Below, piece after piece: positions 38,100 through 53,117 of a DNA stretch of 53,117 nt. Source of the DNA: a virus (lineage: Duplodnaviria; Caudoviricetes); IMG/VR virus record IMGVR_UViG_3300018074_000005, positions 1 through 53,117 of that record; one strand, written 5' to 3'. The notes beneath the pieces are model-generated. The model ran no database searches. It saw only the letters and a list, made by a program, of their open reading frames with translations, and was not told the origin of the DNA. Position 1 is the stretch's first letter. Each line of letters opens with the position of its first letter. A program made the position numbers and the translations under genes.

Positions 38100-38258
38100 A
38101 TGCCTAAAATAATGACGCCCAGACAGCATCGGTTCCTCGAAAGCTCAGGCTCGCCGCTTACGTCAGAGCAGCGCGAACGGATGCATGCTCGGCTGCGTTC
38201 CGGTGAAGATAAAATCCGAAAGCGCCCGCGCAGCAGCAAACGCAGGAGAAAACGGTGA
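38100..38258 (+). CDS. 52-aa basic protein
   Basis: RBS GAGGT; ends RKRPRSSKRRRKR*; stop overlaps the next ATG. Confidence 0.6.
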   Translation: MPKIMTPRQHRFLESSGSPLTSEQRERMHARLRSGEDKIRKRPRSSKRRRKR

Positions 38259-38779
38259 TGAGAAGTGTGCGAGAATTAGCGGGCAAACTGGCGCTGCTCA
38301 TTGGGCTGGTGCTGGTGACGATGGCACCCTCACCGCCGTATCTGGGCCAGCAAGTCGATGGTAATCGAAACAGTCTGGGTAGTGCAGCAAACCCACCGGC
38401 GGCTACCTTGTTTGACAAGACGGGAACGGCGATCGATGCGGGCAACCCCTTGCCGGTAAGCGCCGCCATTATAGCGGCGTGCAAAAAGGTCGTGGTGAAC
38501 GGGAGTGGTGTAGCAGGCGCTGACATCACGATCGATTCCACCGCTGGAGGCATCGTGGTGCTGGCGGCGAATGCGACTCAGTGCGCGTTCGACATCCGCA
38601 ACAGCGGCACCGCCCCGATGCGCTGCTGTCCTTCGACGCTGACTTGTTCTTCGACCGCTGGCTTTCTGCTCAATCAGGGCGAAGACCTCAAAGCCGGACT
38701 CGAAGGACAGGAAGCCTGGAAATGTATTCGCACCACGGGCACCTCGACGACGGCCAACGTGGCGCAGGCCACACCATGA
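38258..38779 (+). CDS. Small beta-rich structural-like protein with hydrophobic leader (paralog family A)
   Basis: KLALLIGLVLVTMA leader; VLAANA...IRNSG...GFLLN. Confidence 0.65.
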   Translation: MRSVRELAGKLALLIGLVLVTMAPSPPYLGQQVDGNRNSLGSAANPPAATLFDKTGTAIDAGNPLPVSAAIIAACKKVVVNGSGVAGADITIDSTAGGIVVLAANATQCAFDIRNSGTAPMRCCPSTLTCSSTAGFLLNQGEDLKAGLEGQEAWKCIRTTGTSTTANVAQATP

Positions 38780-39894
38780 TTAGAAGACTATTTCTAGCGA
38801 TTGCATTATTCGCTTGTCTTGGGTTAGGAGTGGATGGGAATAGACCCCCCTCACCACTAGCAGATAATCGCATCGTTAATCCTGGCATGCAGATTGACCA
38901 ACGTCATGAAGGTACGTCGGTCGCAATAGCAACGGGTAACTTTGCGCTTATTTCTGATCAGTGGTTTGTTACCTTTCAAGGGTCAGCTACAGGTATAACT
39001 GCACAACGAGTGGCAGACGCACCAGCGGGCTTCGCATACAGTGAGAAAGTAACGGTCGGTGTTGGTAGTGCAGTAATAGCGGCCACTGATGAACTCTACT
39101 ATACACAGGATTTAGAGACCGACAATGTTAAGGATTTTAAACTTGGCACTGCGAGTGCAGCGACAGTTTCCTGTTCATTTTGGGTCAAATCAAATATTAC
39201 AGGTACCTTTGGGTTTCAATTTACTAACAGTGCGCTCGATCGTTCATATGTAGCTATCTTTACTATTACTGATGCCAATACGTGGCAACAGGTCAAACTC
39301 AATGGAGTCGTGTTAGATACAACGGGTAGTTGGAGTGGTTCGATCGGATTGGTAATTAATATTGTATTAATGGCAGGGTCGGATTTACGAGGTGCATTAG
39401 GTTGGCAGGCCGGTGATATTGGGACTACCAGCGCGCAGACCAATCTCGCTGCGACCAGTGGCAATACATTTCAGCTTACGGGTGTAAAGCTGGCAGTTGA
39501 GCCGGTCGCGACGGTGCTGGTGCCGCGTTCATATACAGAAGAGTTGCTGCTATGTGAACGTTACTATTGGAAGACCTTTCTCGAAGGAACTGTCCCGGCA
39601 CAAAGCGCCGGTGTTGCAGGCTCCCTACAAACCAAGAATCCGATTGCGCTGGGGGATCCTTCGATTCTCGTGATGTTTCCGGTCAAGATGGCTTACGCGC
39701 CCGTTATCACGACGTACAATCCTAGTGCTGGGAATGCGAATTGGCGCAACATTACGGCGGCCGCTGACGCTACAGTGAGCGTTGATCCTGGAAGCGCAGT
39801 CAGCACCACAAGTGCGCTCATCGCGACGAGTGGAACGGTGACGACGTTAGGCAATATTCTCGCTATTCATTTGACTGCGGATGCAGGGCTATGA
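38776..39894 (+). CDS. Tail fibre/carbohydrate-binding-like protein with signal-peptide-like leader
   Basis: MIRRLFLAIALFACLGLG; NRIVNPGMQIDQR...SFWVKS...TGVKL...EELLLCERYYWK, a phage tail-fibre motif set. Confidence 0.75.
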   Translation: MIRRLFLAIALFACLGLGVDGNRPPSPLADNRIVNPGMQIDQRHEGTSVAIATGNFALISDQWFVTFQGSATGITAQRVADAPAGFAYSEKVTVGVGSAVIAATDELYYTQDLETDNVKDFKLGTASAATVSCSFWVKSNITGTFGFQFTNSALDRSYVAIFTITDANTWQQVKLNGVVLDTTGSWSGSIGLVINIVLMAGSDLRGALGWQAGDIGTTSAQTNLAATSGNTFQLTGVKLAVEPVATVLVPRSYTEELLLCERYYWKTFLEGTVPAQSAGVAGSLQTKNPIALGDPSILVMFPVKMAYAPVITTYNPSAGNANWRNITAAADATVSVDPGSAVSTTSALIATSGTVTTLGNILAIHLTADAGL

Positions 39895-40466
39895 AGCGTC
39901 TGATCGCATTGATCCTCGCGAGCGTGCTGTTTGCGCTCGGTGATGTTGGGCGTGCAGATTCCGTCACCGTATATCCAACAGGTCGCACCGAGAGTTACAG
40001 CTCGTGTGCGACGGATGTGCCCGCTCCGGTCAATGACCAGCCCTGTTTTCAGACGTCTGATCATACTTGGTATTACTATGTCGCTGTTTCAACCAGTTGG
40101 ACAGCGATGGGTAGCAGCGTTCTGACCGCGACGAGGATCATCCAACCGCCCAATATCCAGATAATTTCGACGGGGACGGGGACAGTTTCCTTTGCGACCG
40201 GCGATTTTCAGAAGGTGACACTGGCGAGTTCTTCGACGATTACGCTGTCGGGCGCGACCACGGGGCAGAGTCTGATCGTGAAGCTGGTGCAGGATGCGAC
40301 CGGCGGGCGCCTGGTCACATGGACGGCGGGGACGGACACGATCGCGTGGCTCAACGGGATCGCGCCGACGCTGACCGCGACGCCGAGCAAGGCGGACATC
40401 ATCGGGTTCATCTACGACAATGGTACGTACTCGCAGACCGGATTCGCCCCGAACGAGACTCCATAG
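39891..40466 (+). CDS. Tail-fibre-like protein with signal-peptide-like leader
   Basis: MKRLIALILASVLFALGDVGRA; LVQDATGGRLVTW...PTLTATPSKADIIGF. Confidence 0.75.
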   Translation: MKRLIALILASVLFALGDVGRADSVTVYPTGRTESYSSCATDVPAPVNDQPCFQTSDHTWYYYVAVSTSWTAMGSSVLTATRIIQPPNIQIISTGTGTVSFATGDFQKVTLASSSTITLSGATTGQSLIVKLVQDATGGRLVTWTAGTDTIAWLNGIAPTLTATPSKADIIGFIYDNGTYSQTGFAPNETP

Positions 40467-41327
40467 ATGAAGTCTGCGATAGGCAGGAACAAGCTGGCGC
40501 TGCTGGTGACACTGGTGGCGGTGAGCTGCGCCCTCAACGAAATAGCGGAGGCGCGGCCGTTCCCGGTTTTCGTGCCGGGGGCCGCAATCCCCACTCCTAC
40601 GCCGACCGCGACCCCGACTGCAACCGTGACTCCAACTGCAACTCCTACGGCCACCGCAACCGCCACGCCGACGGCAACCGCTACCCCTTCCGCGATTACC
40701 CTGGTCAGTCCTTGCCAGACGGGCAGCGCCGGCGCAGTCGGAGCACTTACGATCTCCAAACCGGCCGGAGTGGTAGCCGGCGACGTGCTGGTAGCCTTTA
40801 CTTGGGTCCGCAAGAGTCCGATCCCCACCATTACCGATCCAACTGGCTGGATTCAGGACGACACTATTGACGGAGGGACAAGTTCGACGCTGGGACGAGG
40901 CCGCACGCTTCACCATGTAGTGGATGGAACCGAAGGGGTCAGTTTCAGTTGGGGCTACAGCGCCAATTCCACCGTTACCGGCGGGGCGATCTGTGCCTAC
41001 CGCAACGTCAACCCAACTACGCCAATTGATGTTCACTCGATCAACACCGCCGCGGTCAGTCCGCCGACCGCACTTGGTGTTACAACTACCGTCAGCAATG
41101 ATCAACTAGTGATCAGTTTCGCCGACGAGATCGCGCTGGTGACGCCGGTCACTCCGGCTGGCTTCACCTTGCAGTGGGACAACAGCGATACGGTCAATAC
41201 TCAGGAAACCTGGGGTTACGACAAGGCGCTTGGCGCGGCGCCTGTCACAACCGGCAACCAAACCTCGGGGTCCAGCAGCACCAACAGGTGGTTCGCCGCT
41301 CAAGTGGCTCTCAGGCCGATAATATGA
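40467..41327 (+). CDS. Secreted-type protein with TP linker and beta domain
   Basis: Leader ending AEA; (TPTA)n linker; ISKPAGVVAGDVLVA...PTGW. Confidence 0.75.
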   Translation: MKSAIGRNKLALLVTLVAVSCALNEIAEARPFPVFVPGAAIPTPTPTATPTATVTPTATPTATATATPTATATPSAITLVSPCQTGSAGAVGALTISKPAGVVAGDVLVAFTWVRKSPIPTITDPTGWIQDDTIDGGTSSTLGRGRTLHHVVDGTEGVSFSWGYSANSTVTGGAICAYRNVNPTTPIDVHSINTAAVSPPTALGVTTTVSNDQLVISFADEIALVTPVTPAGFTLQWDNSDTVNTQETWGYDKALGAAPVTTGNQTSGSSSTNRWFAAQVALRPII

Positions 41328-41410
41328 ATTCCAGTAGCGACGCCGATTGGAACACCAACTCCGTTGGCCGCCAGCCTGACGGCTCTGCGCGAACTGAAGG
41401 ATGAGGTGCA

Positions 41411-43000
41411 GTGATGAAACGAGGATGGATGCTGTTGACAGTGCTGGCGCTATGGGCAGGCTGCGCGTTGGGCGCGGTAACTCAACTGCTGCCAGGCCAG
41501 AAAGCGTATGTGAAGTGCGCGCCGCCGGGGAGGGACCTTGGGACGATTATTCTGAATCCTGGTGATACGCTCATCTGCGGCACGCCGGCGGCAGGCGGAC
41601 CTACGCCGACTCGTACTGCCAGCCCGACTAGAACCGCGACACCGACGCGCACGGCAACACCAACCGCTAGTGCCACGCCGGTCCCTACCATAGTCCCGAC
41701 TGGCAGCCCTGCGACCCAGAGCCGGACACCGACTGCCTCCCCGCTGCCGACGCCCGTGCCGACTCCGACCGTGATCGCCGGTACGGCTTACTTCGTCGAT
41801 AACTCGATTGCCTGCTCGGATACGAGCGCAGGAACCAGTCCGGCGGCGCCGTGGTGTAGCGTCGCCAAGGCGATGGCCAAGCAAGCATCGCTGGCGCCCG
41901 GCGACGGCATTCTGTTCAAGTGCGGCGATGTATGGAACGAGCAGTTCAACCTCGCCAACATCCACGGTTCGGTCGGGCGTCCGGTCATCATCGGCCACTA
42001 CGGCAGCAACTGCGTCCTGCCCAACCGGACCTACACGGCGACTCTGCCGACCCTCAATGGCGGCAGCACCCGCAAGCATGGCTTCTACGCTGATAACTCC
42101 GGCGTGAGCTATGTGACGATCGACGGCTTCAATATTCACGACACGACGCTGGGCGGGATCGTGATTAACGCCAGCGGCAGCAACATGCCCGGCATCACCA
42201 TCGAGAACAACCTCGTGCATCAGGTCGGGCCGGGCGCGTGCGCGGGTTGCGGGACTCCCAGTGACCCTGGAGGTGGCTCGCAGTATGGGGAGAATCCAGG
42301 CATCGGCTTCTCGGACTTTGGCACCAAGCCCGTCTCCAACGGCGTGCATATCCTCAACAACACGGTGTGGGACACCGGCGGACACAACACGCTCAGAATC
42401 CATTACGACAGCAGCCCCGATGTGCTCGTATCGGGGAACTTGGTCGGTCCCGGCTGCCTGCACAACTGCATGGACACCAAAGGGATCAACGGGACGGTCT
42501 CGAACAACATCGCCACCTGTCCTGAGAGTTCGGCACGTGGTGAGCAATGTGGTTCGGGGACCGCTGGTGTCTACAGCGAGAACACCTATGTCACAGCAGG
42601 TGTCAGCCCGCGCTGGATCAGCAACGTCATGCACGACATTGCGATCTGTTCGCAGGCCGAGGGCGATTCAGGTCACGCGATGAAGCCGAAGTTCTACAAC
42701 AACACCTGCATCAACCCGTCGAACTATGGGCTGTATTATAAGACCGCCAAGAACGCGGACGTGCAGAAGAATCTGCTCGCGGGGCAGATCGCCTCGACTT
42801 CGGGCAGCTTCGCGACTTGGGACTACAACGACAATTTTGGCGCCAGCGGGAATCCAACCGGAGCCCATGACGTGAGCGTCAATCCGTTGTACGTCAATCC
42901 GGCGGCGGGCGATTTCATGCCGCAGGCCGCATCGCTGCTGGCGGGATGGTCGGTCAGTACGGTGACGGCTTACGACTATCTCGGAGCGGTCGGACCCTGA
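41411..43000 (+). CDS. Right-handed beta-helix (pectin-lyase-like) protein with signal peptide and TP linker; possible depolymerase
   Basis: MMKRGWMLLTVLALWAGCALG; YFVD...GTSPAAPW...LAPGDGILFK; IENN/ILNN repeats; VNPLYVNPAAGDF. Confidence 0.8.
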   Translation: MMKRGWMLLTVLALWAGCALGAVTQLLPGQKAYVKCAPPGRDLGTIILNPGDTLICGTPAAGGPTPTRTASPTRTATPTRTATPTASATPVPTIVPTGSPATQSRTPTASPLPTPVPTPTVIAGTAYFVDNSIACSDTSAGTSPAAPWCSVAKAMAKQASLAPGDGILFKCGDVWNEQFNLANIHGSVGRPVIIGHYGSNCVLPNRTYTATLPTLNGGSTRKHGFYADNSGVSYVTIDGFNIHDTTLGGIVINASGSNMPGITIENNLVHQVGPGACAGCGTPSDPGGGSQYGENPGIGFSDFGTKPVSNGVHILNNTVWDTGGHNTLRIHYDSSPDVLVSGNLVGPGCLHNCMDTKGINGTVSNNIATCPESSARGEQCGSGTAGVYSENTYVTAGVSPRWISNVMHDIAICSQAEGDSGHAMKPKFYNNTCINPSNYGLYYKTAKNADVQKNLLAGQIASTSGSFATWDYNDNFGASGNPTGAHDVSVNPLYVNPAAGDFMPQAASLLAGWSVSTVTAYDYLGAVGP

Positions 43001-43020
43001 ACTGGCCGCATAGGGGAAAC

Positions 43021-43311
43021 ATGGATGATCGGTACGTCACGGAGAGCCTGTTTGAGTGGGTGGTCGGCAGTATTGTGTTGGTCTGGGTCGCCGTGACCGG
43101 CACCTTGTACGCCATGCTCAATTCACGCAGCCGGATTACGCGCAAAGAAGTGGTGGAGATGCTGGGCGCGACCGAACAACGACTCGATAAGCGACTAGAC
43201 GAACAGCGCGACACATTGGGGCAACTGCGCACCGAGTTACAGACAATGGATACCAAGTTGAGTGCGGGGCATGATCGCATCTTGTCGATTTTGCTGGAGC
43301 GGGGTGGCTGA
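43021..43311 (+). CDS. Holin-like protein (one TM plus coiled coil)
   Basis: Hydrophobic helix then coiled coil; directly before the endolysin. Confidence 0.55.
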   Translation: MDDRYVTESLFEWVVGSIVLVWVAVTGTLYAMLNSRSRITRKEVVEMLGATEQRLDKRLDEQRDTLGQLRTELQTMDTKLSAGHDRILSILLERGG

Positions 43312-43790
43312 TGGAGCGCATTCCCAACGGGTGGCAGGAAATCACTGCAACGTATTCGATGCCGGAGCGCGACTTATCCGGCATCATCACTTGGAAATGG
43401 CGGACCGAGAATCTGATGACCATCATCGCGCCGGTTCCGATGCATCTGGCTTGGGGCGGAATTGCGACACGAATCACCTGCCATAAGTTGATCGCGGACC
43501 GGCTGCTGGCGGCTCTGACGGAGTGCGTTCAGACCGGCATGGGCAATTATATCAGCGAAGGCTACGGCGGCTGTTTCGCGGATCGGGCGATACGGGGGGT
43601 ACCGACGAAGCTGTCGTTGCACGCCTTGGGCATCGCGATTGACCTGCGGGTGGCGACTAATCCGCTGGGGGGACCAGCCGAAATGAATCCTGAAGTTGTG
43701 CGCATGTTCGAGAATAATGGTGCCTCTTGGGGCGGCAATTTCACGACTCGAATGGATCCTATGCACTTCCAATTCGCAGCAGGGGCATAG
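43311..43790 (+). CDS. Endolysin, M15-family peptidase
   Basis: YGGCF..RAIRG...LSLHALGIAIDL...WGGNF...DPMHFQ. Confidence 0.92.
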   Translation: MERIPNGWQEITATYSMPERDLSGIITWKWRTENLMTIIAPVPMHLAWGGIATRITCHKLIADRLLAALTECVQTGMGNYISEGYGGCFADRAIRGVPTKLSLHALGIAIDLRVATNPLGGPAEMNPEVVRMFENNGASWGGNFTTRMDPMHFQFAAGA

Positions 43791-43795
43791 AAGCG

Positions 43796-43915
43796 ATGAC
43801 TATGGTTATCGCTCTTGTTGCGGGACTGATGACCGGCGTGGTAATAGGGTTGATGCTCTGGGTTGGAGTCGGCGTCAAGCGGCGTGCAGAGTATCGCGCG
43901 CGACACATGCTGTGA
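43796..43915 (+). CDS. Small membrane peptide (lysis accessory?)
   Basis: One TM followed by a basic tail. Confidence 0.45.
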   Translation: MTMVIALVAGLMTGVVIGLMLWVGVGVKRRAEYRARHML

Positions 43916-43916
43916 A

Positions 43917-45653
43917 ATGCTTGAGCCTTTCGTGCAAAGCGACTTTAGTCTTGGGCTCGTCGCGGTCGTAGGTCGCTACCAGCAACCGCCCAACTCAGTT
44001 TTTCGTCTCTCAAACTTCTTCTACCGCACGCCCGGCGACCTTGAAGTGGTCGATGGCAGCCTAATCGTTACTACCCGCGTCGCACCCGGCCCGACCAACT
44101 CCATCGTCATAATCGCGCCGTTTACGCCGGTCGGCTCAGCTGCGAAGATTCTGGCGCTCCAGTTCAGCGGTGCACAGTACGACCTGATCGACGTAAGCGG
44201 GGCGACTTACAACGCCTCGCTGGCTACGCTGGCGAGCACCTACGCAACGCCTGACCTCGTAATGTTCGCCGGCAAACTCGTGGTCGTGGCGGGTCTGTCA
44301 GTGGTGCCGCAGCTTTGGAACGGGGCGGCGCTGACGCCGATTACCAATAGCTGGACTGCGGCCGGCTACATCCCGCTGTGGCAAGCGGCCCTGCCTGTGC
44401 AGGTCGGCGATGTGATTCAGCCCACGCCTACCAATGGCTTCTTTTACATCTGCGAGCAGGCCGGACTGACGGGCGCTGCGCTACCGGCCTTTCCGGTGGT
44501 AGCAGGAACCGTGGTAGACAACAATGTGATCTGGCGCTTCACCGGCCCCACGACACCAGTGACAGTGCCCAAAGCCGCACACGCCTTCAACCATCTCGAT
44601 TCACTATGGTTATGGGGCACGGATGCCGCAGAGGGGCCGTTTGACGGCCCGAGCTCACTGCGTATGAGCGACACCGGCAACCCCAATTCGTACAACCCCA
44701 TCAACCAGGACTTCATCGGCGTCGGCGATGGGCAGACCGCACAAGGCGGTGCCAGCATGTCGATGGGCGAGTTGGGAATCGCCAGTACACCGACGTTAGT
44801 CCTGTTCAAGGATCGCTCGACCTATGAGATCGTGGGGTCTTTCCCGGTCGCGACTGCGAGCAAGGCCAAGACTGATAAGGGCTGCATCGCGGCGCGCTCG
44901 ATTCAGTTCATCGCCGAGCTCGGCGGCGTCATCCGACTGACGCATCAAGGCTTCGCGCTCTATACGGGGCCGGGCCAGACCGGCGACCAACTCCTAAGTG
45001 AGGTCATCCAGGACTACATTTTCCCCAACAGCTCAGACGTGGCCGCGATCGACTTCACCAACGCCAGTGTGGCGAAGTCAGGCCAGATGGACAACCCGCT
45101 GATGTACCTCTGCGCCGTGCCGATTATCGGGGGCAGCGGCAACCTGACGCGCGTGTTTATCTATTCCATCTTACAGAAGGTGTGGGCCATCGCGGATCTG
45201 CCCTTCAACATCACGGCGCTCAATTTCGTACAGATCCCGAATGTAGCGGCAAAGTTGCTGCTCGGGGACAAGACCGGCGGCAACGTGCGGCGGTGGATGG
45301 CTAACGATAGCGACTTTGATGGCGCGGCGATCTCATGGTCCGTTAGGGGACCGCTGATGCGGGACAAGCGGGGAGCGCCGGTCTACTTCCGGCGGGTGAC
45401 AGTGCAGACCTCCGGCGGTACGCCCACAATCACGAGCGCAACGCTCGACTACGACGACATCGCAACCGCACGTCCCAAAACGCAGGCCGTCACGACAGTG
45501 GCGCCCTATCCGGTGAGTCCGCCGGTCAGTCTATCCCTGGGCATCACGACGCGTGGCGCGCAGATCACCGTCAACGGCAAGGGCAAGACTAAACTTGAGG
45601 CGCTTGAGTGGCATGGTGTGCGCAAGCGGCCGCGTCAGATTGCCGGTGTCTAA
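43917..45653 (+). CDS. Tail nozzle/tubular protein B-like (beta-propeller)
   Basis: About 580 aa; LRMSDTGNPNSY, LVLFKDRSTY, KGCIAARSI motifs typical of podovirus stabilisation proteins. Confidence 0.75.
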   Translation: MLEPFVQSDFSLGLVAVVGRYQQPPNSVFRLSNFFYRTPGDLEVVDGSLIVTTRVAPGPTNSIVIIAPFTPVGSAAKILALQFSGAQYDLIDVSGATYNASLATLASTYATPDLVMFAGKLVVVAGLSVVPQLWNGAALTPITNSWTAAGYIPLWQAALPVQVGDVIQPTPTNGFFYICEQAGLTGAALPAFPVVAGTVVDNNVIWRFTGPTTPVTVPKAAHAFNHLDSLWLWGTDAAEGPFDGPSSLRMSDTGNPNSYNPINQDFIGVGDGQTAQGGASMSMGELGIASTPTLVLFKDRSTYEIVGSFPVATASKAKTDKGCIAARSIQFIAELGGVIRLTHQGFALYTGPGQTGDQLLSEVIQDYIFPNSSDVAAIDFTNASVAKSGQMDNPLMYLCAVPIIGGSGNLTRVFIYSILQKVWAIADLPFNITALNFVQIPNVAAKLLLGDKTGGNVRRWMANDSDFDGAAISWSVRGPLMRDKRGAPVYFRRVTVQTSGGTPTITSATLDYDDIATARPKTQAVTTVAPYPVSPPVSLSLGITTRGAQITVNGKGKTKLEALEWHGVRKRPRQIAGV

Positions 45654-45656
45654 GCG

Positions 45657-46823: not shown

Positions 46824-46932
46824 CCTGTCCAGACTGCGATGGCAGTGGCTCGCTGACGGGAAGGAAATCTTCGCTGGGTTGGTGGTCGGCATGACCTGTC
46901 CAGACTGCGATGGCAGTGGCTCACTGACGGGA
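46820..46932 (+). repeat. 42-bp direct repeat pair flanking a 29-bp insert that is antisense to the tailspike gene
   Basis: Copies at 46820..46861 and 46891..46932 (1 mismatch). 46860..46892 is the exact reverse complement of 52994..53026. Confidence 0.92.
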
Positions 46933-47148
46933 CTTGGATGCGGCCCTCGCGCATCGCGAGTGGTGACGCTGGCTTGCTTTACTTGCTACGGCAGCGGGGA
47001 GATTGACGAGGCTAAAGCCAAGGCGATTGAAGCCGGTGAACAGATGCGCAAGGAACGTGTAGCGCGCGGCTTGAGCCTGCGAGCTGAGGCGCGACGGCTG
47101 GGCATTAAGCCGGGCGTGCTGGCGGATCGTGAACAGGGCCGCAACTGA
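46891..47148 (+). CDS. DnaJ-type Zn finger plus XRE-like HTH protein
   Basis: CPDCDGSG...CFTCYGSG; RVARGLSLRAEARRLGI....LADREQG. Confidence 0.75.
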   Translation: MTCPDCDGSGSLTGLGCGPRASRVVTLACFTCYGSGEIDEAKAKAIEAGEQMRKERVARGLSLRAEARRLGIKPGVLADREQGRN

Positions 47149-47615
47149 TGCCCATTGACTCGACCAAGACTGGGCGGACCTTCCCCGCCACACCCGAGAG
47201 CGTACCGCCGTGGGCGCCGCTGATGGAGGCTGTGCGTGATCTCAAAAAAACACTTGAACAATTCGGCGTCAAAGTTGTAATCGCCTTGGGCGAGCATCAG
47301 CGTGAATTGTCCCGCGCACGCGCTGCCATCGACAACAGTGCTGGGGCCACTACCCGCGCCGCCAAGGCGATCGTGCAGGCGACCGCAATCCATTGTCGGA
47401 AGATCGAGGAACATGGGCGCAAACTTGAGCGGTTCAATATCGGAAGTGAAGCGCGTGTACGGAAGCTGGATTCAGCACGTGTTCAGCCACGTCAGACAGC
47501 TCTCGCAGCCCCAAGACCAGCGCCTGCGCGAAGCCGTCCATTGGCACCTTTACACGATGGACGACAGCAAGGGGGTGCGCCCCGCCCTAGTCGGCGCGTG
47601 CTACGTGGCAGATGA
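47148..47615 (+). CDS. Hypothetical coiled-coil protein (overlaps the next gene by about 200 nt)
   Basis: TGATG coupling; helical first 100 aa. Confidence 0.5.
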   Translation: MPIDSTKTGRTFPATPESVPPWAPLMEAVRDLKKTLEQFGVKVVIALGEHQRELSRARAAIDNSAGATTRAAKAIVQATAIHCRKIEEHGRKLERFNIGSEARVRKLDSARVQPRQTALAAPRPAPARSRPLAPLHDGRQQGGAPRPSRRVLRGR

Positions 47616-48330
47616 GCATTTGCTATCGAATCTCCACCGCGACCTTGACGCGTTGCGTGCGGCTGCGGCTGTCGAGCTGATACATCGCTCGACTCTCGCG
47701 GTCGATGACTTAATTGATGATTCGCCCAAGCGCGGCGCACGCGAGGCCCTGCATGTCCGCTACTCGCCGGTGATGGCGGGTGCTGTGGCGATGTGGCTCA
47801 ACTGCATGGCGCAAAAACTGCTCGATGACAATGCCCGCGCGCGCCAAGACCTGCGGATACTGGCTAACCGGCTGGCGCTGGGGGAAGTACTGCAGGAGCG
47901 CTGGAGCAAACAAGAGGGCAAGACGCCGCCGGCGACTTGGCAGGAGATCGCGGATTTGGATACCGGCGCGCTGTTCGATTTTACGCTGGCGATGGGCCGT
48001 AAGCCTAGTCCCGCGTTCGCCTATCCGTTGGCGCGACTGCGGCATGGACTCGATGATATCGAAGATCTGCTGGACCCCGAAGGCGATCAGCGCGACGTGG
48101 CGCAGGGGACACCGACACTCCCGACGGTGTTCACCGAAGCTAAGGAGCACGCGGGACTGGTTGCGGCGATTCCGCGGGCGCTGGCGTATCTTGAAACTGA
48201 GCTGGAACGTGTTAAGGTGTACGTCAAGCGCAAGGGAATGCTGAGGCCATTTGTCGATGACTTCGAGCGACAACTGCGAGGATACCAGAAAGTCGGCGTC
48301 AGCGCCGACCGGGACCGCAGCCGACCTTGA
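47413..48330 (+). CDS. Polyprenyl synthetase (trans-isoprenyl diphosphate synthase) family protein
   Basis: KGVRPALV, AAAVELIH.STLAVDDLIDDSPKRG (first DDxxD), LDDIED (second DDxxD), DVAQGTPTLP; RBS GAGGA. Confidence 0.85.
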   Translation: MGANLSGSISEVKRVYGSWIQHVFSHVRQLSQPQDQRLREAVHWHLYTMDDSKGVRPALVGACYVADEHLLSNLHRDLDALRAAAAVELIHRSTLAVDDLIDDSPKRGAREALHVRYSPVMAGAVAMWLNCMAQKLLDDNARARQDLRILANRLALGEVLQERWSKQEGKTPPATWQEIADLDTGALFDFTLAMGRKPSPAFAYPLARLRHGLDDIEDLLDPEGDQRDVAQGTPTLPTVFTEAKEHAGLVAAIPRALAYLETELERVKVYVKRKGMLRPFVDDFERQLRGYQKVGVSADRDRSRP

Positions 48331-48760: not shown

Positions 48761-48892
48761 GAGTGTTCCGTCTAACTTGGCCAGTTACGGTCAGTACGTC
48801 TAGCTACTTCCTACGCATAGATTGAGGCTCCGCTGGAGCCGGTGCTACGGTCGCGCCAAGGGATTGTTCTCTCTTACGCGGGAGGATCGTGT

Positions 48893-49258
48893 ATGCACGC
48901 ACGGAATCTGGCTGTGCTCGCGCTGCTATCGGCACTGGCACTGGTAAGTACGCAGGCTTGGGCGGCCGGCGGCGTCAGCGCCGGAACCTCGGTGGGGTCG
49001 GTCACGGCTGTAACGCTGCTCAGCGCCAATGCCGGTCGTCACGGGCTGATGTGTCAGAACAACGGCGCTAATCAGGTCAGTGCCGCCTTCGGCACCACAG
49101 CGACGGCTACCAACGGCTTTTTGCTCAATTCCGCAGGCGGACTGCTCAAGCTGCCCGATGCTGAAACGCCGGGCGTGATTGGCAATGCGATGCCGCTGAC
49201 GGCGCTTTCGGCGCTCTCGGTCTCCGGCACCAATGCCGTTGTGTGCTTGGAGTGGTAG
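48893..49258 (+). CDS. Small beta protein with signal peptide (paralog family A)
   Basis: MHARNLAVLALLSALALVSTQAWA-AGGVSAG...QNNGAN...NGF. Confidence 0.75.
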   Translation: MHARNLAVLALLSALALVSTQAWAAGGVSAGTSVGSVTAVTLLSANAGRHGLMCQNNGANQVSAAFGTTATATNGFLLNSAGGLLKLPDAETPGVIGNAMPLTALSALSVSGTNAVVCLEW

Positions 49259-49260
49259 CC

Positions 49261-50289
49261 ATGAAACGCCTACGCTTACTATTCATCGCCCTTGTTCTCG
49301 TTGCCATTCCTCTGTTGGTCGGTCTGGCCTACCCGCCGGCATTCGCATTCCTCAACGGTGGAAACCCGATCAGCCAAAGCGTTGTTCCGCTCAACACCGA
49401 TACCGGCGTGCCGACCAAAGTGGGGCATGTTTGGTATGTGGACCAGATTAACGGGAACGATACGAACAGCGGCTTTAGCCAGAGCGCCCCGTTCGCGACG
49501 ATTGGCAAGGGTCTGACCTCAGCGACCAATGGCGCGGGCGACATCATCATCGTCTACCCGGGCACCTATGCTGAGAATCTGAGCGTCACCAAGGATTACA
49601 TCACGATGATCGGGGCGATTTTGGGCGGGTACGCACGCCCCGATGTGGTACCGGCTGCGGGGATCGCGCTCACCGTCTCGACAGGAAGGGGATTCACCGC
49701 ACGGCATATGCGCTTTGCGTCGGTGGATAACTCCGACACGGTGCTCCAGAACACCAGTGGATTTCGCTATGAAGACGACGTGTTCGACGGCAACGCGCTT
49801 CAAGTGACCAAAGGAAATTTGCGCATCGTCGGCGGACCCGGCGGGACGGCTTCTGAGGGTAAGGTACTTAACTCGTACATCCGTGGTGGCGGAGCAGCGG
49901 GCATTCTCTTTCAGCATCGACTCGCCATAGATGGCGGCGAGGGCAGCACTGATAACGAGATCGCTCATTGTCGCTTCGTCGATAACGTGGCGAGCGATCT
50001 AAAGAGCGTCGTGAACACCAACGGCGGCGGCGCAGGTATCTACATAAACCTGAGCGTTCACGATAACCAGTTCATGACCAGCGGTGCCTCCTACAAGTAC
50101 ATTAACTTCGCAGCCGGCGCGGCGGGTGACTTGGCAGCCAACTCCTGCCTGATCGCAAATAATTACTTCGCTGACGAAGCGCTGACCGGCGGGACCGGCA
50201 ATCAGATCGATCTGGGCGCACAGCCCAAGGCGCACTTTGCGGGCAACTTCGACGACATCGCCGTCGTCAACGGGACGACCTTCAACTAG
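49261..50289 (+). CDS. Beta-helix (pectin-lyase-like) protein with signal peptide
   Basis: Leader ending AFA; VWYVD..NGNDTNSG....PFATI...GDIIIVYPGTYAE. Confidence 0.8.
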   Translation: MKRLRLLFIALVLVAIPLLVGLAYPPAFAFLNGGNPISQSVVPLNTDTGVPTKVGHVWYVDQINGNDTNSGFSQSAPFATIGKGLTSATNGAGDIIIVYPGTYAENLSVTKDYITMIGAILGGYARPDVVPAAGIALTVSTGRGFTARHMRFASVDNSDTVLQNTSGFRYEDDVFDGNALQVTKGNLRIVGGPGGTASEGKVLNSYIRGGGAAGILFQHRLAIDGGEGSTDNEIAHCRFVDNVASDLKSVVNTNGGGAGIYINLSVHDNQFMTSGASYKYINFAAGAAGDLAANSCLIANNYFADEALTGGTGNQIDLGAQPKAHFAGNFDDIAVVNGTTFN

Positions 50290-50304
50290 AACTAGGAGCG
50301 CGCC

Positions 50305-50589
50305 GTGCCCGATCCTGTACCGGCGACCCTAGCCCCGACACCACCGGCGATTGATACGGGTCGCAGCGTTGTGCGCGATGTTTTGGCGTTCTGCATCACG
50401 GCGGGCTTTTTCGGGTTCATCTTCATGATCGTCTACCTCAAGTGGGTGGACGATAAGATTTTCTCGATTCTGATGGCGCTGATTGCGATCGAGACCAACG
50501 TGCTTCAGTATTATTTCGGAAGTTCGATGGGTAGCGCCAGCAAGGATGCCTTGCTCGGACGCATGGCCAAAAACGGAGGGCAGTCATAA
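50305..50589 (+). CDS. Two-TM holin-like protein
   Basis: Two TM segments and a YYFGSSMGS.SKD motif. Confidence 0.7.
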   Translation: MPDPVPATLAPTPPAIDTGRSVVRDVLAFCITAGFFGFIFMIVYLKWVDDKIFSILMALIAIETNVLQYYFGSSMGSASKDALLGRMAKNGGQS

Positions 50590-50634
50590 TGACTTCCGTA
50601 CAGGCCCCCGCACCCGCAACTGCGAGTCCGTAAG

Positions 50635-50952
50635 ATGGCAGGCGGCGTCAGCGCCGGGTTCACGCTGAACACGGCGACCTCGACGGCGCTGTTGCCGGTC
50701 AACAACCGTCGCAAGTGGCTGTTCATCCAAAACAACGGCGCGAACGTTGTCATCATCGCATGCGGCACGAATAACGGCGCTTCCGCAGTCTCACCCGGCA
50801 ATGGCTTTCAGATCGCAGCCGGCGGTTCCTTGATTCTGCCGCCGGTAGTAGGGGCGCTGCCCGCCGGCGTTGGTCTGACGGGTGCCCCGACCACCGACAT
50901 CGCCGGGATTGCGATTGGGGGCGCCTCGGATGTGGTTGTGCTGGAAAACTGA
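50635..50952 (+). CDS. Small beta protein without signal peptide (paralog family A)
   Basis: MAGGVSAG...NNRRKWLFIQNNGAN...NGFQIAAGGSL. Confidence 0.7.
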   Translation: MAGGVSAGFTLNTATSTALLPVNNRRKWLFIQNNGANVVIIACGTNNGASAVSPGNGFQIAAGGSLILPPVVGALPAGVGLTGAPTTDIAGIAIGGASDVVVLEN

Positions 50953-50980
50953 GCTAAGCCACGCCGCGCGCCCACCCGCC

Positions 50981-53117
50981 ATGTACCCAAGGGGTAGAGC
51001 TGGAAAGCCCGCTCTGCGCAGCCGCTGCCTCAGCGCGGGGCATTATTTGGGTGTGCTCATGCTCCTACTGGCGTTGGGTGCTCAGGCTCGGGCGCAGCCA
51101 ATCAGCGGCCCAACCGCACCCGGCGGCGGTATCAGCGTGCCGGCGGGTACGTCTACCGGGCCGATTATCAACGTCAGCGTTAACAACGTCCTCAACCCCA
51201 AGGCGACGCCCTTCTATGCCAGCGGCTCCAATCAGACTGCGACTTGCAGCGGAACTATCGGGAGTACGGCACTCACCTGTCCCGCTGGGGTAGCCGACTT
51301 CATCGGCCACTACGGGATCACCGTTCCCAGCGGCGGTACGAGCAACACGCTGGCGACACCTGCCGCTCCCGCAGTCGTGAACACCAGCGTCATCACTGCG
51401 GAGGCGGGCAACATTGGCGCTTGCGGCGGCTGTTCGATCACGCCCGCCAATACGCCGACTACGGACTTTGGCGTTCAGTTCACTGCTACGGGCGGTAATT
51501 CGTCGCAGGGACAGCCGCTGACCGAACACGGCAGCGCCCCCGTCGCGCAGTGGCAGTACCACTTCACCGGCGGCGTCTACAACTTTTTCAGTTCCGACGC
51601 GAACAAGGCGGTGTCGCTGGCCTACGAATACACCGATGCAACGGGCGGGACTTCGCATACCTACAAATGCATCGCGCTGAAGCTGGACGGTTCATTCAGC
51701 GCCGCCTCGCCCGGGACAATCAACGCGACCGGCCCTGTAACCTTGAGCTGGCTCAAGCGCAACGACGTGACTTGCGGAGTGTCTGCCGGCGCAGATGCTT
51801 ATGGGTTTTACCGCGACAATGTATGGATCGGCTCGACAGGGACGACTCTCTTCCACGATAACGGAGCAATCAGCCAAAACCGGCCGTGGTGGATTCCATC
51901 CAGTCCGACTGGGGCAGGCGCCGCCCCGCTGGTGACTTCGGTTACTGCGGTTGGAACGACCTCATTGGCGCTGACCGCTGCGCTTGTCAACACCGTGAGC
52001 GCGGTTGCGGTGCGCCATAGCGATAGCGTTGCGATTCAGGCTGCGATTACCGCGTGCGTCGCGCTGGGCGCAGGCGGCTGTGCGGTCGAGTTTCCGCCGG
52101 GCACCTACCTCGCGAACATCATCAACAAGACTGGGGTAGCGTTGCGCGGCCCGCATATCCAGCGCGGTGCATCGGTAACCGGTGCTGCTGTTGTTCTACA
52201 AAGCGGCCTGCCGGGCGCAGTAATCGACAGCGACAACTCCGGCAACCCGCGCAGTTCAGTTGAGGGCTTGGCGCTGAACTGTCTCGGTGCGGGCGGTCTC
52301 GGTGATCGAGGTATTCTACTGCGGCGAGATAAGGGCACAGTGATCAAGAATGTCACTATTCTCGCCTGCGGCGATCAGGGAATCCAGACCCAGATCAACA
52401 CGGTCGCGAACACCATCTTCGATGTACAGGCTCCCGATAGTCTGCGCGATCACAACCGCATCGAGCATAACGGCGCCTTGGACGTAGACGGTAGCGATAA
52501 CTATATCGGTGGCCAGAGTGAATTTGGCGCTGCACTCCAATCTTATGAGAACTCACCGACCTCTTTGCGCCTATATGTCGATGGGATCGTGATTCGCGGC
52601 GGGACCACGCATATCGATGGCCTCGTGGTCGGCGAGCTGTCGGACGAGGGAGTTTACGCAGGCGAGACGGTAACCTCGGCGAGCTACCCGCTATTCATCG
52701 TGATTGATGCGCTGCGGGTTGACCATAATTTCGGGCATGGAATCGAGTTGGAGAAGGGCATCGGTCAGTTCCTCGGCTTATTGTCGCTCGACAACGGCAT
52801 CGGCTTGAATAATTATTTCGATGCAATTCACACCGATAACAATGCGATTGCACAATGGCAGGTAAGCGATTTCTCGAATGTCAGCAACACCGCCAACAGG
52901 GTTCGCTACGGCATCTGGGATGCAGGGTCAGGCTCGGAATATACGAATCCGCTGATAGGCCCGACGTCCTTCAGCACGGCGCGCTACTTCGCTATGCCGA
53001 CCACCAACCCAGCGAAGATTTCCTTCGCGGTGGGCACTGTTCTGCCGCTGACCGGCACGACGCCTGATGTCTCGGCGGGCGACGACTTCTTTTTCAACAA
53101 TGCCGCCACGCCGACCA
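50981..53117 (+). CDS. Tailspike with pectate-lyase-like beta-helix and signal-peptide-like leader (3'-partial; absent from the ORF track)
   Basis: Manual translation is open to the window end: YLGVLMLLLALGAQARA leader; DSVAIQAAI...VEFPPGTY motif; ends ...TPDVSAGDDFFFNNAATPT. Confidence 0.85.
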   Translation, partial: MYPRGRAGKPALRSRCLSAGHYLGVLMLLLALGAQARAQPISGPTAPGGGISVPAGTSTGPIINVSVNNVLNPKATPFYASGSNQTATCSGTIGSTALTCPAGVADFIGHYGITVPSGGTSNTLATPAAPAVVNTSVITAEAGNIGACGGCSITPANTPTTDFGVQFTATGGNSSQGQPLTEHGSAPVAQWQYHFTGGVYNFFSSDANKAVSLAYEYTDATGGTSHTYKCIALKLDGSFSAASPGTINATGPVTLSWLKRNDVTCGVSAGADAYGFYRDNVWIGSTGTTLFHDNGAISQNRPWWIPSSPTGAGAAPLVTSVTAVGTTSLALTAALVNTVSAVAVRHSDSVAIQAAITACVALGAGGCAVEFPPGTYLANIINKTGVALRGPHIQRGASVTGAAVVLQSGLPGAVIDSDNSGNPRSSVEGLALNCLGAGGLGDRGILLRRDKGTVIKNVTILACGDQGIQTQINTVANTIFDVQAPDSLRDHNRIEHNGALDVDGSDNYIGGQSEFGAALQSYENSPTSLRLYVDGIVIRGGTTHIDGLVVGELSDEGVYAGETVTSASYPLFIVIDALRVDHNFGHGIELEKGIGQFLGLLSLDNGIGLNNYFDAIHTDNNAIAQWQVSDFSNVSNTANRVRYGIWDAGSGSEYTNPLIGPTSFSTARYFAMPTTNPAKISFAVGTVLPLTGTTPDVSAGDDFFFNNAATPT

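What the first reader, a model, noticed from the sequence alone, without database searches (positions are those of the whole stretch)
38258..53117. Eight tail-fibre/spike-like proteins carry signal-peptide-like leaders
Seen: ORFs at 38258, 38776, 39891, 40467, 41411, 48893, 49261 and 50981 begin with basic residues and a hydrophobic core, most with an AxA-like cleavage site. Capsid, portal, adaptor and nozzle do not. Several contain recognisable phage fibre or tailspike motifs, spaced Cys residues and TP linkers. Established: tailed-phage virion proteins normally fold and assemble in the cytoplasm without Sec leaders. Inference: receptor-binding appendages are exported and oxidatively folded in the periplasm, then added at or after lysis; alternatively they act as secreted matrix depolymerases or surface modifiers.
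Basis: partly seen in the sequence, partly recalled or inferred. Interest (0 to 1): 0.8.

Follow-up and report, generated by a model that had tools for sequence, protein, structure and literature searches.

The report
Phage proteins built for export
A 53-kb phage genome carries eight late genes whose sugar-binding or sugar-cutting domains, some borrowed from tail fibres, sit behind secretion leaders, so they probably work in the infected cell's envelope rather than being built onto the virus inside the cell.

Summary
The window is the whole record, a podovirus-like phage. Only the eight named ORFs have a basic N-terminus followed by a strongly hydrophobic core: 8 of 20 ORFs in 38.2-53.1 kb against 0 of 39 elsewhere. 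Most starts are backed by a Shine-Dalgarno site or by coupling to the preceding gene.

Two independent signs point to real export. First, a leaderless paralogue (50635) begins where the leader of 48893 should be cut. Second, all eight mature parts have even cysteine counts and about ten times the cysteine density of the leaderless head and internal proteins encoded at 25.7-38.1 kb.

The "tail-fibre/spike" label fits only part of the set:
- 38776 and 39891 carry true fibre-tip domains, with the virion-anchoring N-terminal part replaced by a leader.
- The beta-helix protein 41414 belongs to a family of leader-bearing chromosomal bacterial proteins (Acidobacteria-labelled where named), some next to Wzy-like genes.
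- 41414, 49261 and 50981 match nothing in 50,697 phage records.

Leader-bearing versions recur on unrelated viral contigs.

Best reading (0.5): exported envelope-acting lectins and glycanases. Arming of virions through the periplasm is not excluded (0.2).

The parts
38258..38779 (+). P1, 173 aa. Basic N-terminus plus a 13-residue hydrophobic core with no good cut site, so possibly a signal anchor. The C-terminal half weakly resembles the 48893 small-domain family.
   Evidence: Core hydropathy 3.33. Shine-Dalgarno -7.4, but the alternative start at 38321 scores -7.8. hhalign to the family profile: E 0.0015, probability 17%. Six Cys in the mature part.
38776..39894 (+). P2, 372 aa. Leader followed directly by a CBM-like beta-sandwich and a conserved C-terminal block. 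This is the tip domain of T7-like tail fibres, here without the fibre's N-terminal part.
   Evidence: phrog_4492 tail fiber, E 5.8e-32, residues 27-370 against profile positions 789-1094 of 1096. 52 phage records match by tblastn, mostly annotated tail fiber. The model (mean pLDDT 56.8, residues 30-260 usable) matches CBM4-2 (1k42, E 5.8e-7) and CBA120 TSP4 (5w6h, E 1e-6). GC 0.49 and GC3 0.43 against 0.66-0.76 for the other 19 genes measured. The start overlaps P1's stop by 4 nt.
39891..40466 (+). P3, 191 aa. Leader (cut after GRA) plus a C-terminal domain of about 100 aa shared with fibre and 'tail assembly' proteins of cultured phages.
   Evidence: PHROG tail families: 19976 (2.5e-10), 9017, 22179, 3904. 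19 phage records match. The Sano and Epa19 homologues have no leader. Of two metagenomic homologues, one has a leader. Two Cys.
40467..41327 (+). P4, 286 aa. Leader with a lipobox-like AVSC and also an AEA site, then a TP-rich linker and a domain of unknown family.
   Evidence: No Pfam, PHROG, NCBIfam, PDB-sequence or phage-record match. Two Cys beyond the possible lipobox Cys.
41414..43000 (+). P5, 528 aa. Leader (lipobox-like WAGC, or cut after LGA), a small two-Cys segment, a TP-rich linker, then a beta-helix-type domain of a bacterial secreted family.
   Evidence: Residues 118-198 match the N-cap of lacto-N-biosidase LnbX (5gqc_A, E 7.3e-8; NF047897, E 1.7e-8, far below the cut-off). 67 homologues at up to 57% identity, 43 of them flagged as leader-bearing; the named ones are Acidobacteria bacterium and Ca. 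Angelobacter. No match in phage records. Homologue loci are chromosomal, and in 2 of the 4 examined lie next to Wzy_C genes.
48893..49258 (+). P16, 121 aa. Classic leader (AWA cut) plus a small eight-strand jelly-roll domain of a phage-specific family.
   Evidence: Shine-Dalgarno -10.3. Model pLDDT 81.1, with helix 3-24 followed by strands. BFVD: 22 matches at E<=1e-3, all uncharacterised or unnamed viral proteins. PDB best Z 7.9, not decisive. Family: 10 of 14 members carry leaders.
49261..50289 (+). P17, 342 aa. Leader (18-residue core, AFA cut) plus a beta-helix-type protein.
   Evidence: phrog_16653 'hydrolase', E 6.4e-8. NF047854 Leptospira surface-protein family, E 2.6e-9, below the cut-off. 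26% identity to P5 over 171 aa. No phage-record match. Two Cys.
50635..50952 (+). P19, 105 aa. Leaderless paralogue of P16, serving as an internal control for the leader.
   Evidence: Residues 2-104 align with P16 residues 25-120 at 39% identity, E 1.7e-8. It has one Cys. By eye, P16's two Cys (positions 54 and 118) align with non-Cys residues of P19.
50981..53116 (+). P20, at least 712 aa, running off the record's end. Long basic N-region, hydrophobic core, ARA cut, then beta-rich domains and a beta-helix-like part.
   Evidence: The start is uncertain. Weak matches only: Beta_helix 0.12 and rhamnogalacturonidase 0.0086. No phage-record match. Ten Cys in the part held.
42946..43915 (+). Context: a lysis cassette between the two leader clusters. 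It comprises a TM plus coiled-coil protein, an M15 endolysin (43311-43790) and a 62-aa TM protein.
   Evidence: Peptidase_M15_4, E 1.1e-13. Endolysin PHROGs and a weak Rz-like hit at 0.0029.
43863..45653 (+). Context: leaderless nozzle/tail-hub-like protein. The leaderless 45657-46271 and 46311-46823 follow it.
   Evidence: Atlas feature score 0.97 to a PF11134 Phage_stabilise cluster and 0.95 to a 'Tubular protein B' cluster. This is a lead, not an alignment.

Best explanation
The eight proteins are exported. Their leaders send them through the Sec pathway. Five or six are probably cut by signal peptidase I, 40467 and 41414 may instead be lipid-anchored, and 38258 may stay membrane-anchored. 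They fold in the oxidising periplasm with disulfide bonds.

The set is modular, combining glycan-binding and glycan-cutting parts:
- Fibre-tip domains detached from their virion anchors (38776, 39891).
- Small jelly-roll proteins (48893, probably 38258).
- Beta-helix proteins of a bacterial secreted type (41414, 49261, 50981).

They are made with the late genes and act on the infected cell's own surface polysaccharide (EPS, capsule or O-antigen) from the envelope side. By cutting or masking it, they would keep progeny and rival phages from sticking to the dying cell and its debris, and let progeny leave the matrix.

Basis of each step: the leaders, domain identities, cysteine pattern and recurrence are shown by computation. 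Export itself, the substrates and the benefit to the phage are inferred.
For: Leaders are confined to these ORFs: 8 of 20 against 0 of 39, p 5.7e-5. Starts are supported by Shine-Dalgarno pairing or coupling.

P19 is P16 without the leader and starts at the predicted cut.

Cysteines:
- Mature-part counts are 6, 2, 2, 2(+1), 14(+1), 2, 2 and 10. All are even once the possible lipobox Cys is set aside.
- Density is about 1.7%, against 7 Cys in about 4,000 residues of the leaderless head and internal proteins encoded at 25.7-38.1 kb. The 1592-aa protein has none.
- In the P16 family, 10 of 10 leader-bearing members have even counts (2, 4, 4, 4, 2, 6, 2, 0, 2, 0). The 4 leaderless members have 1, 1, 1 and 0.

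The P5 family is bacterial and secreted. 43 of 67 members were flagged as leader-bearing, and the contigs reach 779 kb. The four homologue loci examined are chromosomal, with a Wzy_C gene adjacent in 2 of 4. P5, P17, P20 and P4 have no match in 50,697 phage records.

In P2 the tip domain follows the leader directly, and in P3 about 60 residues after it. The corresponding domains in cultured phages sit behind leaderless N-terminal fibre parts.

The genes behave as movable cassettes:
- P2 has GC3 0.43 against 0.66-0.76 for the other 19 genes measured.
- Leader-bearing relatives sit at varied positions on unrelated viral contigs: between MCP and connector in L002, between TerL and portal in L091, and after the portal in L094.

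A polyprenyl-synthetase-like gene lies in the same region.
Against: No trained signal-peptide predictor was run and no experiment exists.

P1-P5 sit where T7-like phages keep the fibre gene, after the large internal protein and before lysis. This synteny is recalled, not tested.

No leaderless protein of this phage was shown to be a receptor binder. 45657, 46311 and 28478 have no matches, so the virion's own receptor binder is unidentified.

Some leader-bearing relatives keep long fibre-like N-terminal parts (P0098, L094, L125).

The small-plus-large gene pair also occurs wholly leaderless (L089). It may therefore be a virion module that exists in two topologies.

Catalytic residues and substrates were not examined. 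The beta-helix folds were not modelled. The host is unknown, and the Acidobacteriota link rests on P5 relatives only.
Confidence: 0.5

Rival explanations
1. Periplasmic arming. The exported proteins are the virion's receptor-binding appendages. They fold and form disulfides in the periplasm, and join tails only when the holin opens the inner membrane or after lysis.
For: P2 and P3 carry genuine fibre-tip domains. P1-P5 lie between the internal-protein gene and the lysis and nozzle genes. No other receptor binder was identified. The cysteine pattern fits oxidative folding. In L002, three consecutive leader genes lie inside the structural module. P0098 has a fibre-like N-terminal stretch right after its leader (the resemblance is recalled).
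Against: The eight mature N-termini share no anchor domain, and the sequence after the P1 and P2 leaders is not duplicated. In P2 and P16 the globular domain starts right at the cut. The beta-helix members resemble chromosomal bacterial proteins and not phage spikes. Gene positions vary among phages. No such pathway is known for tailed phages (recalled). Six literature searches found none.
Confidence: 0.2
2. Host-benefit cargo. The genes are morons or auxiliary genes expressed for the lysogen, either as secreted polysaccharide-degrading enzymes and lectins for nutrition or as surface conversion, rather than tools of the lytic cycle.
For: The P5 family is a host-type secreted family. 5% of soil-prophage CAZymes carry signal peptides (PMC13507307, passages read). 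A sigma-70-like site (10 of 12 matches) lies in the 216-nt gap before 48893. P2 is compositionally foreign.
Against: No integrase or repressor module was found in the record. Promoter-like sites are no more frequent than in shuffles, 5 against 5.4. P1-P4 are translationally coupled within the late gene string. The P2, P3 and P16 domains are phage-specific.
Confidence: 0.15
3. Not exported. The hydrophobic N-termini are artefacts of start-codon choice, or they serve another role such as membrane tethering in the cytoplasm or oligomerisation.
For: 38258 has an equally good start after the core, and the 50981 start is unsupported. No predictor or experiment was available.
Against: Six of the eight starts are supported. 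The domain boundaries in P2 and P16 exclude downstream starts. The leaders differ in sequence but share the n/h/c layout. The cysteine parity and the family-wide link between leader and cysteines would be unexplained.
Confidence: 0.05

Closest known systems
WceF of Pantoea stewartii (PMC7949094; abstract and passages read)
   Same: It is a tailspike-like trimeric beta-helix protein with an N-terminal export signal that is cut off. It acts on the cell's own exopolysaccharide and is encoded in the EPS cluster. P5 relatives likewise sit next to Wzy-like genes.
   Different: WceF is a host gene, uses a Tat signal and keeps a P22-like head-binding domain. Here the genes are phage-borne and the leaders are Sec-type, with only 38776 carrying an RR pair. 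No sequence relation to WceF was tested.
Bdellovibrio MAT fibre proteins (PMC10769870; passages read)
   Same: There are many paralogous phage-fibre-like proteins, each with a signal peptide. They are exported to the cell surface as glycan or surface binders with swappable tips.
   Different: MAT proteins are chromosomal and all share a conserved domain of about 130 aa after the signal peptide. The eight proteins here share no such domain and sit in a phage.
Virion-borne T7-like tail fibres and tailspike depolymerases
   Same: The P2 and P3 tip domains are homologous to those of annotated fibres. The CBM-like fold is also seen in solved structures of phage tailspike and tail-fibre proteins (CBA120 TSP4, K2-2 TSP, Kp7 gp52).
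   Different: Those proteins have leaderless N-terminal anchor or shaft parts and assemble in the cytoplasm. Here that part is replaced by a leader. The beta-helix members have no relatives among phage records.
Exported phage accessory proteins: lambda Lom and Bor, T5 Llp, Cor, Sec/SAR endolysins, spanins
   Same: They are phage-encoded, carry a signal peptide or lipobox, act in the envelope, and are often placed among tail or lysis genes. Some block receptors.
   Different: None is built from receptor-binding or depolymerase modules, and none comes as a set of eight.
Signal-peptide-bearing CAZymes of soil prophages (PMC13507307; passages read)
   Same: They are phage-borne carbohydrate-active proteins with predicted signal peptides (3,261 of 64,678).
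   Different: That survey removed tail-fibre-like and structural genes on purpose. It treats the enzymes as host-metabolism extensions and describes no clusters.

Membership tests
Sec-type signal peptide cut by signal peptidase I | Positively charged n-region, then an uncharged hydrophobic core of about 7-18 residues at the true N-terminus. | tested here: met
   All eight ORFs have net charge +1 to +5 and core hydropathy 2.33-3.52. Starts are supported for six. 38258 and 50981 are uncertain.
Sec-type signal peptide cut by signal peptidase I | Small residues at -3 and -1, with no Pro at +1. | tested here: inconclusive
   Read by eye. The feature is clear in 48893, 49261, 50981 and 39891, acceptable in 38776, 40467 and 41414, and absent in 38258. 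No trained predictor was run.
Sec-type signal peptide cut by signal peptidase I | Demonstrated export and cleavage. | not testable with these tools
   Only indirect signs are available: the paralogue boundary and cysteine parity.
Bacterial lipoprotein signal (lipobox) | [LVI..][ASTVI..][GAS]-C at the end of the core, with Cys within about residues 15-35 (pattern recalled). | tested here: inconclusive
   40467 (AVSC, Cys21) and 41414 (WAGC, Cys17) fit, but each also has a signal peptidase I site 4-8 residues later. 38776 (FAC, Cys14) fails on position.
Tat signal | Twin-arginine motif (S/T-R-R-x-F-L-K) with a long, mildly hydrophobic core. | tested here: not met
   Only 38776 has RR-x-F-L. Its n-region is 4 residues and its core is strongly hydrophobic (2.94). 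The other seven lack RR next to the core.
Virion tail fibre / receptor-binding protein | Homology to a known fibre tip domain. | tested here: met
   Met for 38776 (phrog_4492, E 5.8e-32; 52 phage records) and 39891 (four tail PHROGs; 19 records) only. Not met for the other six.
Virion tail fibre / receptor-binding protein | N-terminal domain that docks on the tail. | tested here: not met
   In 38776 and 48893 the domain starts at the cut. No family was detected in any post-leader segment. Cultured homologues have such parts. An unrecognised docking element cannot be excluded.
Virion tail fibre / receptor-binding protein | Presence in purified virions. | not testable with these tools
   The phage is uncultured and known only as a contig.
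Phage tailspike depolymerase | Right-handed beta-helix related to phage spikes. | tested here: not met
   41414, 49261 and 50981 give no match in 50,697 phage records. The N-cap matches are to bacterial proteins. The beta-helix fold itself was not modelled, so that part is inconclusive.
Exported EPS-modifying glycanase (WceF-like, by function) | Export signal plus beta-helix plus linkage to polysaccharide-synthesis genes. | tested here: inconclusive
   The leader is present. Relatives of 41414 lie beside Wzy_C genes in 2 of the 4 loci examined, out of 22 loci found. Activity and any relation to WceF were not tested.
Moron / lysogenic-conversion cassette | Own promoter and terminator, foreign composition, temperate phage. 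| tested here: inconclusive
   One good promoter-like site lies before 48893, but the scan shows no enrichment. Only 38776 is compositionally foreign. No integrase was found.

The most novel reading that the evidence does not exclude
Some tailed phages route their receptor-binding proteins through the Sec pathway. The fibres and spikes mature with disulfides (perhaps with glycosylated TP linkers) in the periplasm and are loaded onto cytoplasm-built particles only when the holin breaches the inner membrane. This would be a two-compartment assembly line not described for Caudoviricetes. The same gene pairs, a small jelly-roll protein plus a large binder, exist in leaderless and leader-bearing forms in different phages, which would then mark repeated switches between the two routes.
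Probability: 0.15. Interest if true: 0.9.

Novelty: new variant of a known kind. Interest (0 to 1): 0.6.

Why it matters
Tail fibres and spikes are taken to be cytoplasmic, virion-bound proteins, and annotation pipelines label any gene with such a domain "tail fiber". This record shows that fibre-tip and depolymerase-type modules also circulate among phages as exported proteins. It also holds eight of them in one genome.

Relatives show the same pattern:
- About 11 of 25 distinct viral-contig proteins with the 38776 domain carry leaders.
- So do 10 of 119 length-matched database relatives.

If the proteins strip or mask receptors from inside the envelope, this would be a phage counterpart of receptor-destroying enzymes or receptor interference. 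It would bear on host-range prediction, on burst efficiency in EPS-rich soils and sediments, and on the search for soluble, disulfide-stabilised depolymerases. If instead they are loaded onto virions, the textbook assembly pathway would need an added compartment.

Both readings can be tested directly with leader fusions and virion proteomics.

Tried and rejected
**Close relatives of the phage.** None was found.
- Viral-contig scans with 38776 and with the MCP gave nothing useful.
- A metagenome scan with the nozzle protein found none.
- TerL reaches at most 26% identity among the 15 listed of 127 matching phage records, and all 127 are below 60%.
- So orthologue-level conservation of the leaders could not be checked.

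**Circular join.** Joining the record's end to its start does not continue 50981 in frame, and there is no terminal repeat. The 5' open ORF 2-718 looked to me like the 39891 domain, but BLASTP shows nothing (E 3.1). I dropped that idea.

**"VDGNR" motif.** It follows both the P1 and P2 leaders, but there is no DNA-level duplication. I treat it as chance.

**Automated leader survey.** I ran one over 1,397 rough gene calls from fetched loci and got 75 hits, 5.4%. On the window itself the rule recovered only 4 of the 8 ORFs and gave 3 false hits. I use it only as a pointer to loci, not as a rate.

**Fold of P16.** Foldseek against the PDB gave no E<=1e-3 match. VIA wide gave a best Z of 7.9 (STIV A223, SH1 spike, Ena pilins, PM2 P1, cupins), which is within the usual background. 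The fold is a small jelly roll with no function implied.

**P2 model.** The C-terminal 110 residues were not modelled (pLDDT below 50).

**No-match searches.**
- PDB sequence searches gave nothing for 38776, 49261, 40467, 39891 or 43863.
- Pfam at relaxed thresholds added nothing.

**Sequencing runs.** Two coded DNA runs hold the stretch and may be its source. No RNA holder is listed.

**Complex prediction.** I did not use it. I make no claim that the small and large proteins bind beyond their conserved adjacency.

**Tools and papers that did not help.**
- Earlier findings were not open.
- One alignment was too diverse for a scan and was replaced by a smaller one.
- Three papers were opened for "signal peptide" and held nothing relevant (PMC12946066, PMC5587285, PMC9915841).
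- The Tunturi virus paper has no mention of signal peptides or tail fibres.
- Supplementary files were not consulted.

Full report
**What the record is.** The window is the whole deposited genome, one contig of 53,117 bp. It is a tailed phage with these features:
- RecE/YqaJ exonuclease, replication initiator, DnaB and two DNA methylases.
- TerL (20090-21910), portal (22985-24745) and MCP (26972-27967).
- A 1592-aa protein with a ParB-like segment (33310-38088).
- A lysis cassette with an M15 endolysin at 43311-43790.
- The 596-aa protein at 43863, which resembles P22 gp10 / tail tubular protein B by protein-atlas features (score 0.97).

The phage has no close cultured relatives. All 127 matching phage records are below 60% identity to TerL, and the best listed hits are about 25%.

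**The observation.** I scored the N-termini of 59 hand-picked ORFs. That is 8 of 20 ORFs in 38.2-53.1 kb against 0 of 39 elsewhere (Fisher p 5.7e-5).

Cut sites read by eye:
- A-x-A in 48893, 49261, 50981 and 40467.
- Small residues at -3/-1 in 39891, 41414 and 38776.
- 38258 has no usable site and may be a signal anchor.
- 40467 and 41414 also fit a lipobox.

Starts are credible for six of the eight:
- Shine-Dalgarno pairing is -9.5, -10.3 and -6.7 kcal/mol for 41414, 48893 and 49261.
- There is a 4-nt ATGA overlap for 38776 and 39891.
- 40467 starts on the base after a stop.
- 38258 has an equally good start just past the core.
- 50981 lacks a Shine-Dalgarno site. Of its five alternatives, three keep the core, one trims it, and one (51137) lies past it.

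No trained predictor was available, so the call is rule-based.

**Independent signs of export.**

First, 48893 and 50635 are paralogues (39% identity, E 1.7e-8). Residues 25-120 of the leader-bearing protein align with residues 2-104 of the leaderless one. The leaderless protein therefore starts exactly at the predicted AWA cut.

Second, cysteines:
- Mature-part counts are 6, 2, 2, 3, 15, 2, 2 and 10. In 40467 and 41414 one cysteine is the possible lipobox residue, which would be lipidated or removed. All eight counts are then even.
- The leaderless head and internal proteins encoded between 25.7 and 38.1 kb hold 7 cysteines in about 4,000 residues. The 1592-aa protein has none.

Third, the correlation holds across the 48893 family. 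An exhaustive HMMER search gave 16 proteins. I analysed 14 and left out two long repeat proteins.
- The 10 members with leaders have 2, 4, 4, 4, 2, 6, 2, 0, 2 and 0 mature cysteines.
- The 4 without leaders have 1, 1, 1 and 0.

This is what oxidative folding outside the cytoplasm predicts.

**What the proteins are.**

- **38776.** Leader plus the C-terminal tip domain of T7-like tail fibres.
  - phrog_4492, E 5.8e-32, matching only profile positions 789-1094 of 1096.
  - 52 phage records match, mostly cyanophage, pelagiphage and Methylophilales-phage "tail fiber" genes.
  - The usable part of its model (residues 30-260; overall pLDDT 56.8) is a CBM4/11/22-like sandwich. That fold is also seen in solved structures of phage tailspike and tail-fibre proteins (1k42 E 5.8e-7; 5w6h E 1e-6).
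- **39891.** Carries a domain of about 100 aa shared with fibre and "tail assembly" proteins of Xylella phage Sano, Pseudomonas Epa phages and Stenotrophomonas phages (19 records). The two I read, Sano and Epa19, have leaderless N-terminal parts.
- **41414.** Leader, TP linker, then a domain whose N-cap matches lacto-N-biosidase LnbX (E 7.3e-8).
  - It has 67 relatives at up to 57% identity, on contigs up to 779 kb. The named ones are Acidobacteria bacterium and Ca. Angelobacter.
  - 43 of the 67 were flagged as leader-bearing, and several of the rest are truncated records.
  - In the four relatives' loci I annotated (of 22 found), the neighbours are ordinary bacterial genes. In two loci a Wzy_C gene is adjacent.
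- **49261 and 50981.** Both look like beta-helix proteins from weak N-cap matches.
- **Phage-record check.** 41414, 49261, 50981 and 40467 match nothing in 50,697 phage records.
- **48893.** A small jelly roll (pLDDT 81.1). Its only clear structural relatives are uncharacterised or unnamed viral proteins: 22 BFVD matches at E<=1e-3, and a best PDB Z of 7.9, which is background level.
- **38258.** Weakly resembles the 48893 family (hhalign E 0.0015, probability 17%).
- **40467.** Unknown.

**Relatives elsewhere.** Leader-bearing forms recur.
- Among the best 119 non-self database relatives of 38776 (length-limited search), 10 have classic leaders. Most others start 5-15 residues before the domain or have long fibre N-termini.
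- Of 39 viral-contig loci with the domain, I read the full upstream frame in 35 and dropped 4 partial matches. Thirteen loci, about 11 of 25 distinct sequences, start with a leader. This includes every one I read in which a long, beta-helix-type (Pectate_lyase_3-like) N-terminal part precedes the domain (judged by eye for L085, L098, L112 and L124, not annotated). One locus is cut by a contig end.
- In named genomes, a Rhodoblastus prophage has two leader-bearing proteins (599 and 799 aa) between a J-like protein and an amidase. A Stellaceae contig has a leader-bearing pair. A Planctomycetota contig has a leaderless form.
- L002 is an unrelated podovirus-like contig that shares only this one gene with the window. 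It has three consecutive leader genes between MCP and connector genes.
- The cultured phage HMO-2011 has a short leaderless version after a run of small fibre genes.

**A recurring pair.** A small 48893-family gene sits immediately upstream of a large binder gene.
- In the window: 48893 before 49261, 50635 before 50981, and probably 38258 before 38776.
- Elsewhere: L124 (hhalign 95%, E 3e-8), L002 and L089.
- Both members carry leaders in L124, L002 and two of the window pairs. Both are leaderless in L089. The 50635/50981 pair is mixed.

The pair looks like one functional unit that exists in two topologies. Its role is unknown.

**Virion parts or not?**

Against virion attachment:
- The mature N-termini share no domain.
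- 38776 and 48893 begin with the globular domain itself.
- The beta-helix members are of a bacterial secreted type.
- Positions of leader genes differ among phages: after MCP, between TerL and portal, after the portal.
- 38776 is compositionally foreign, with GC3 0.43 against 0.66-0.76 for the other 19 genes measured.
- Leaderless tail genes exist (43863, 45657, 46311).

For virion attachment:
- The fibre-tip domains are genuine.
- The first cluster sits where T7-like phages keep the fibre gene (recalled).
- I could not identify any other receptor binder.
- Some leader-bearing relatives are long and fibre-like.

**Mechanism.** My best reading (0.5) is that these are exported lectins and glycanases. 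They act on the infected cell's own surface polysaccharide to destroy or mask receptors and to loosen the matrix for progeny. The closest functional model is WceF, a Tat-exported tailspike-like EPS glycanase (PMC7949094). Bdellovibrio MAT proteins show that fibre-like proteins do work as exported surface binders (PMC10769870).

Rivals:
- Periplasmic arming of virions (0.2).
- Host-benefit cargo expressed in lysogens (0.15).
- No export at all (0.05).

**Novelty.** Signal peptides on phage proteins are known for lysis proteins, exclusion proteins and morons (recalled). They are also reported for 5% of soil-prophage CAZymes, in a survey that excluded fibre-like genes (PMC13507307). Six full-text searches turned up no description of clusters of leader-bearing fibre or depolymerase modules in tailed phages, or of periplasmic fibre maturation. 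The library lacks most subscription journals, and I read no supplements. I therefore rate this a new variant of a known kind. It is interesting mainly because it recurs and can be tested directly.

**Limits.**
- No trained signal-peptide predictor was run.
- Gene calls are by hand.
- Leader calls in relatives are by eye or by a simple hydropathy rule.
- The beta-helix folds, catalytic residues and substrates were not examined.
- The host is inferred only from relatives of one gene.
- The record's last gene is incomplete.

Noticed in passing
window 47302-48330 (+): A polyprenyl-synthetase-like gene (PF00348, E 1.1e-13; weak matches to many isoprenyl diphosphate synthases, all below their cut-offs) lies in a phage, between the two leader-gene clusters. 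It may bear on lipid-carrier-dependent envelope glycan synthesis.
   Followed up: partly
window 38776-39894: This gene is a compositional outlier, with GC 0.49 and GC3 0.43 against GC3 0.66-0.76 for the other 19 genes measured. That suggests recent acquisition of the leader-bearing fibre-tip gene from a lower-GC source.
   Followed up: partly
window 48893/49261, 50635/50981, 38258/38776; L124 308-3153; L002 9486-11248; L089 5285-6947: There is a recurring two-gene cassette: a small jelly-roll protein of the 48893 family immediately upstream of a large binder or beta-helix gene. It occurs both with and without leaders in unrelated phages. Its role (partner, chaperone or inhibitor) is unknown.
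   Followed up: partly
window 50305-50589 (+): A 94-aa protein with two predicted membrane spans and a charged tail, holin-like by eye, sits between 49261 and the leaderless 50635. It lies apart from the main lysis cassette at 42946-43915.
   Followed up: no
window 33310-38088 (+): A 1592-aa protein has a ParB-like segment (phrog_21 'portal' C-terminal region, E 1.5e-27; phrog_1033, E 7.3e-6) and not a single cysteine. It is presumably an internal or ejection protein.
   Followed up: no
window 13540-13745: Eleven staggered copies of a 12-nt unit (GC-rich, TGCGGCG.CCC.) lie inside overlapping ORFs on both strands (13346-13897 + and 13471-14160 -).
   Followed up: no
window 46820-46861 and 46891-46932: A 42-nt direct repeat, 98% identical and spaced 71 nt apart, duplicates the start of a small Cys-rich (CxxC) HTH protein gene (46879-47148). 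The first copy lies at the end of 46311-46823 and in the spacer after it.
   Followed up: no
window 1-718 and 53117: Both ends of the record cut open reading frames. A direct end-to-start join does not keep 50981 in frame, and there is no terminal repeat. A database entry lists a 53,190-bp contig for the same proteins. The genome may therefore be circular with a few dozen bases missing.
   Followed up: partly
L094 3392-8065 (IMG/VR contig): A leader-bearing fibre-like protein of about 1,500 aa is inserted between portal/head-morphogenesis genes and the next head gene. That is an odd place for a tail gene.
   Followed up: no
L134 4310-10119 and L139 1029-7629 (metagenome contigs): Relatives of 41414 lie next to a Wzy_C-type membrane protein gene, and a second beta-helix protein gene lies further along. 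L139 also has a methyltransferase gene between them. The loci look like bacterial surface-polysaccharide loci.
   Followed up: partly
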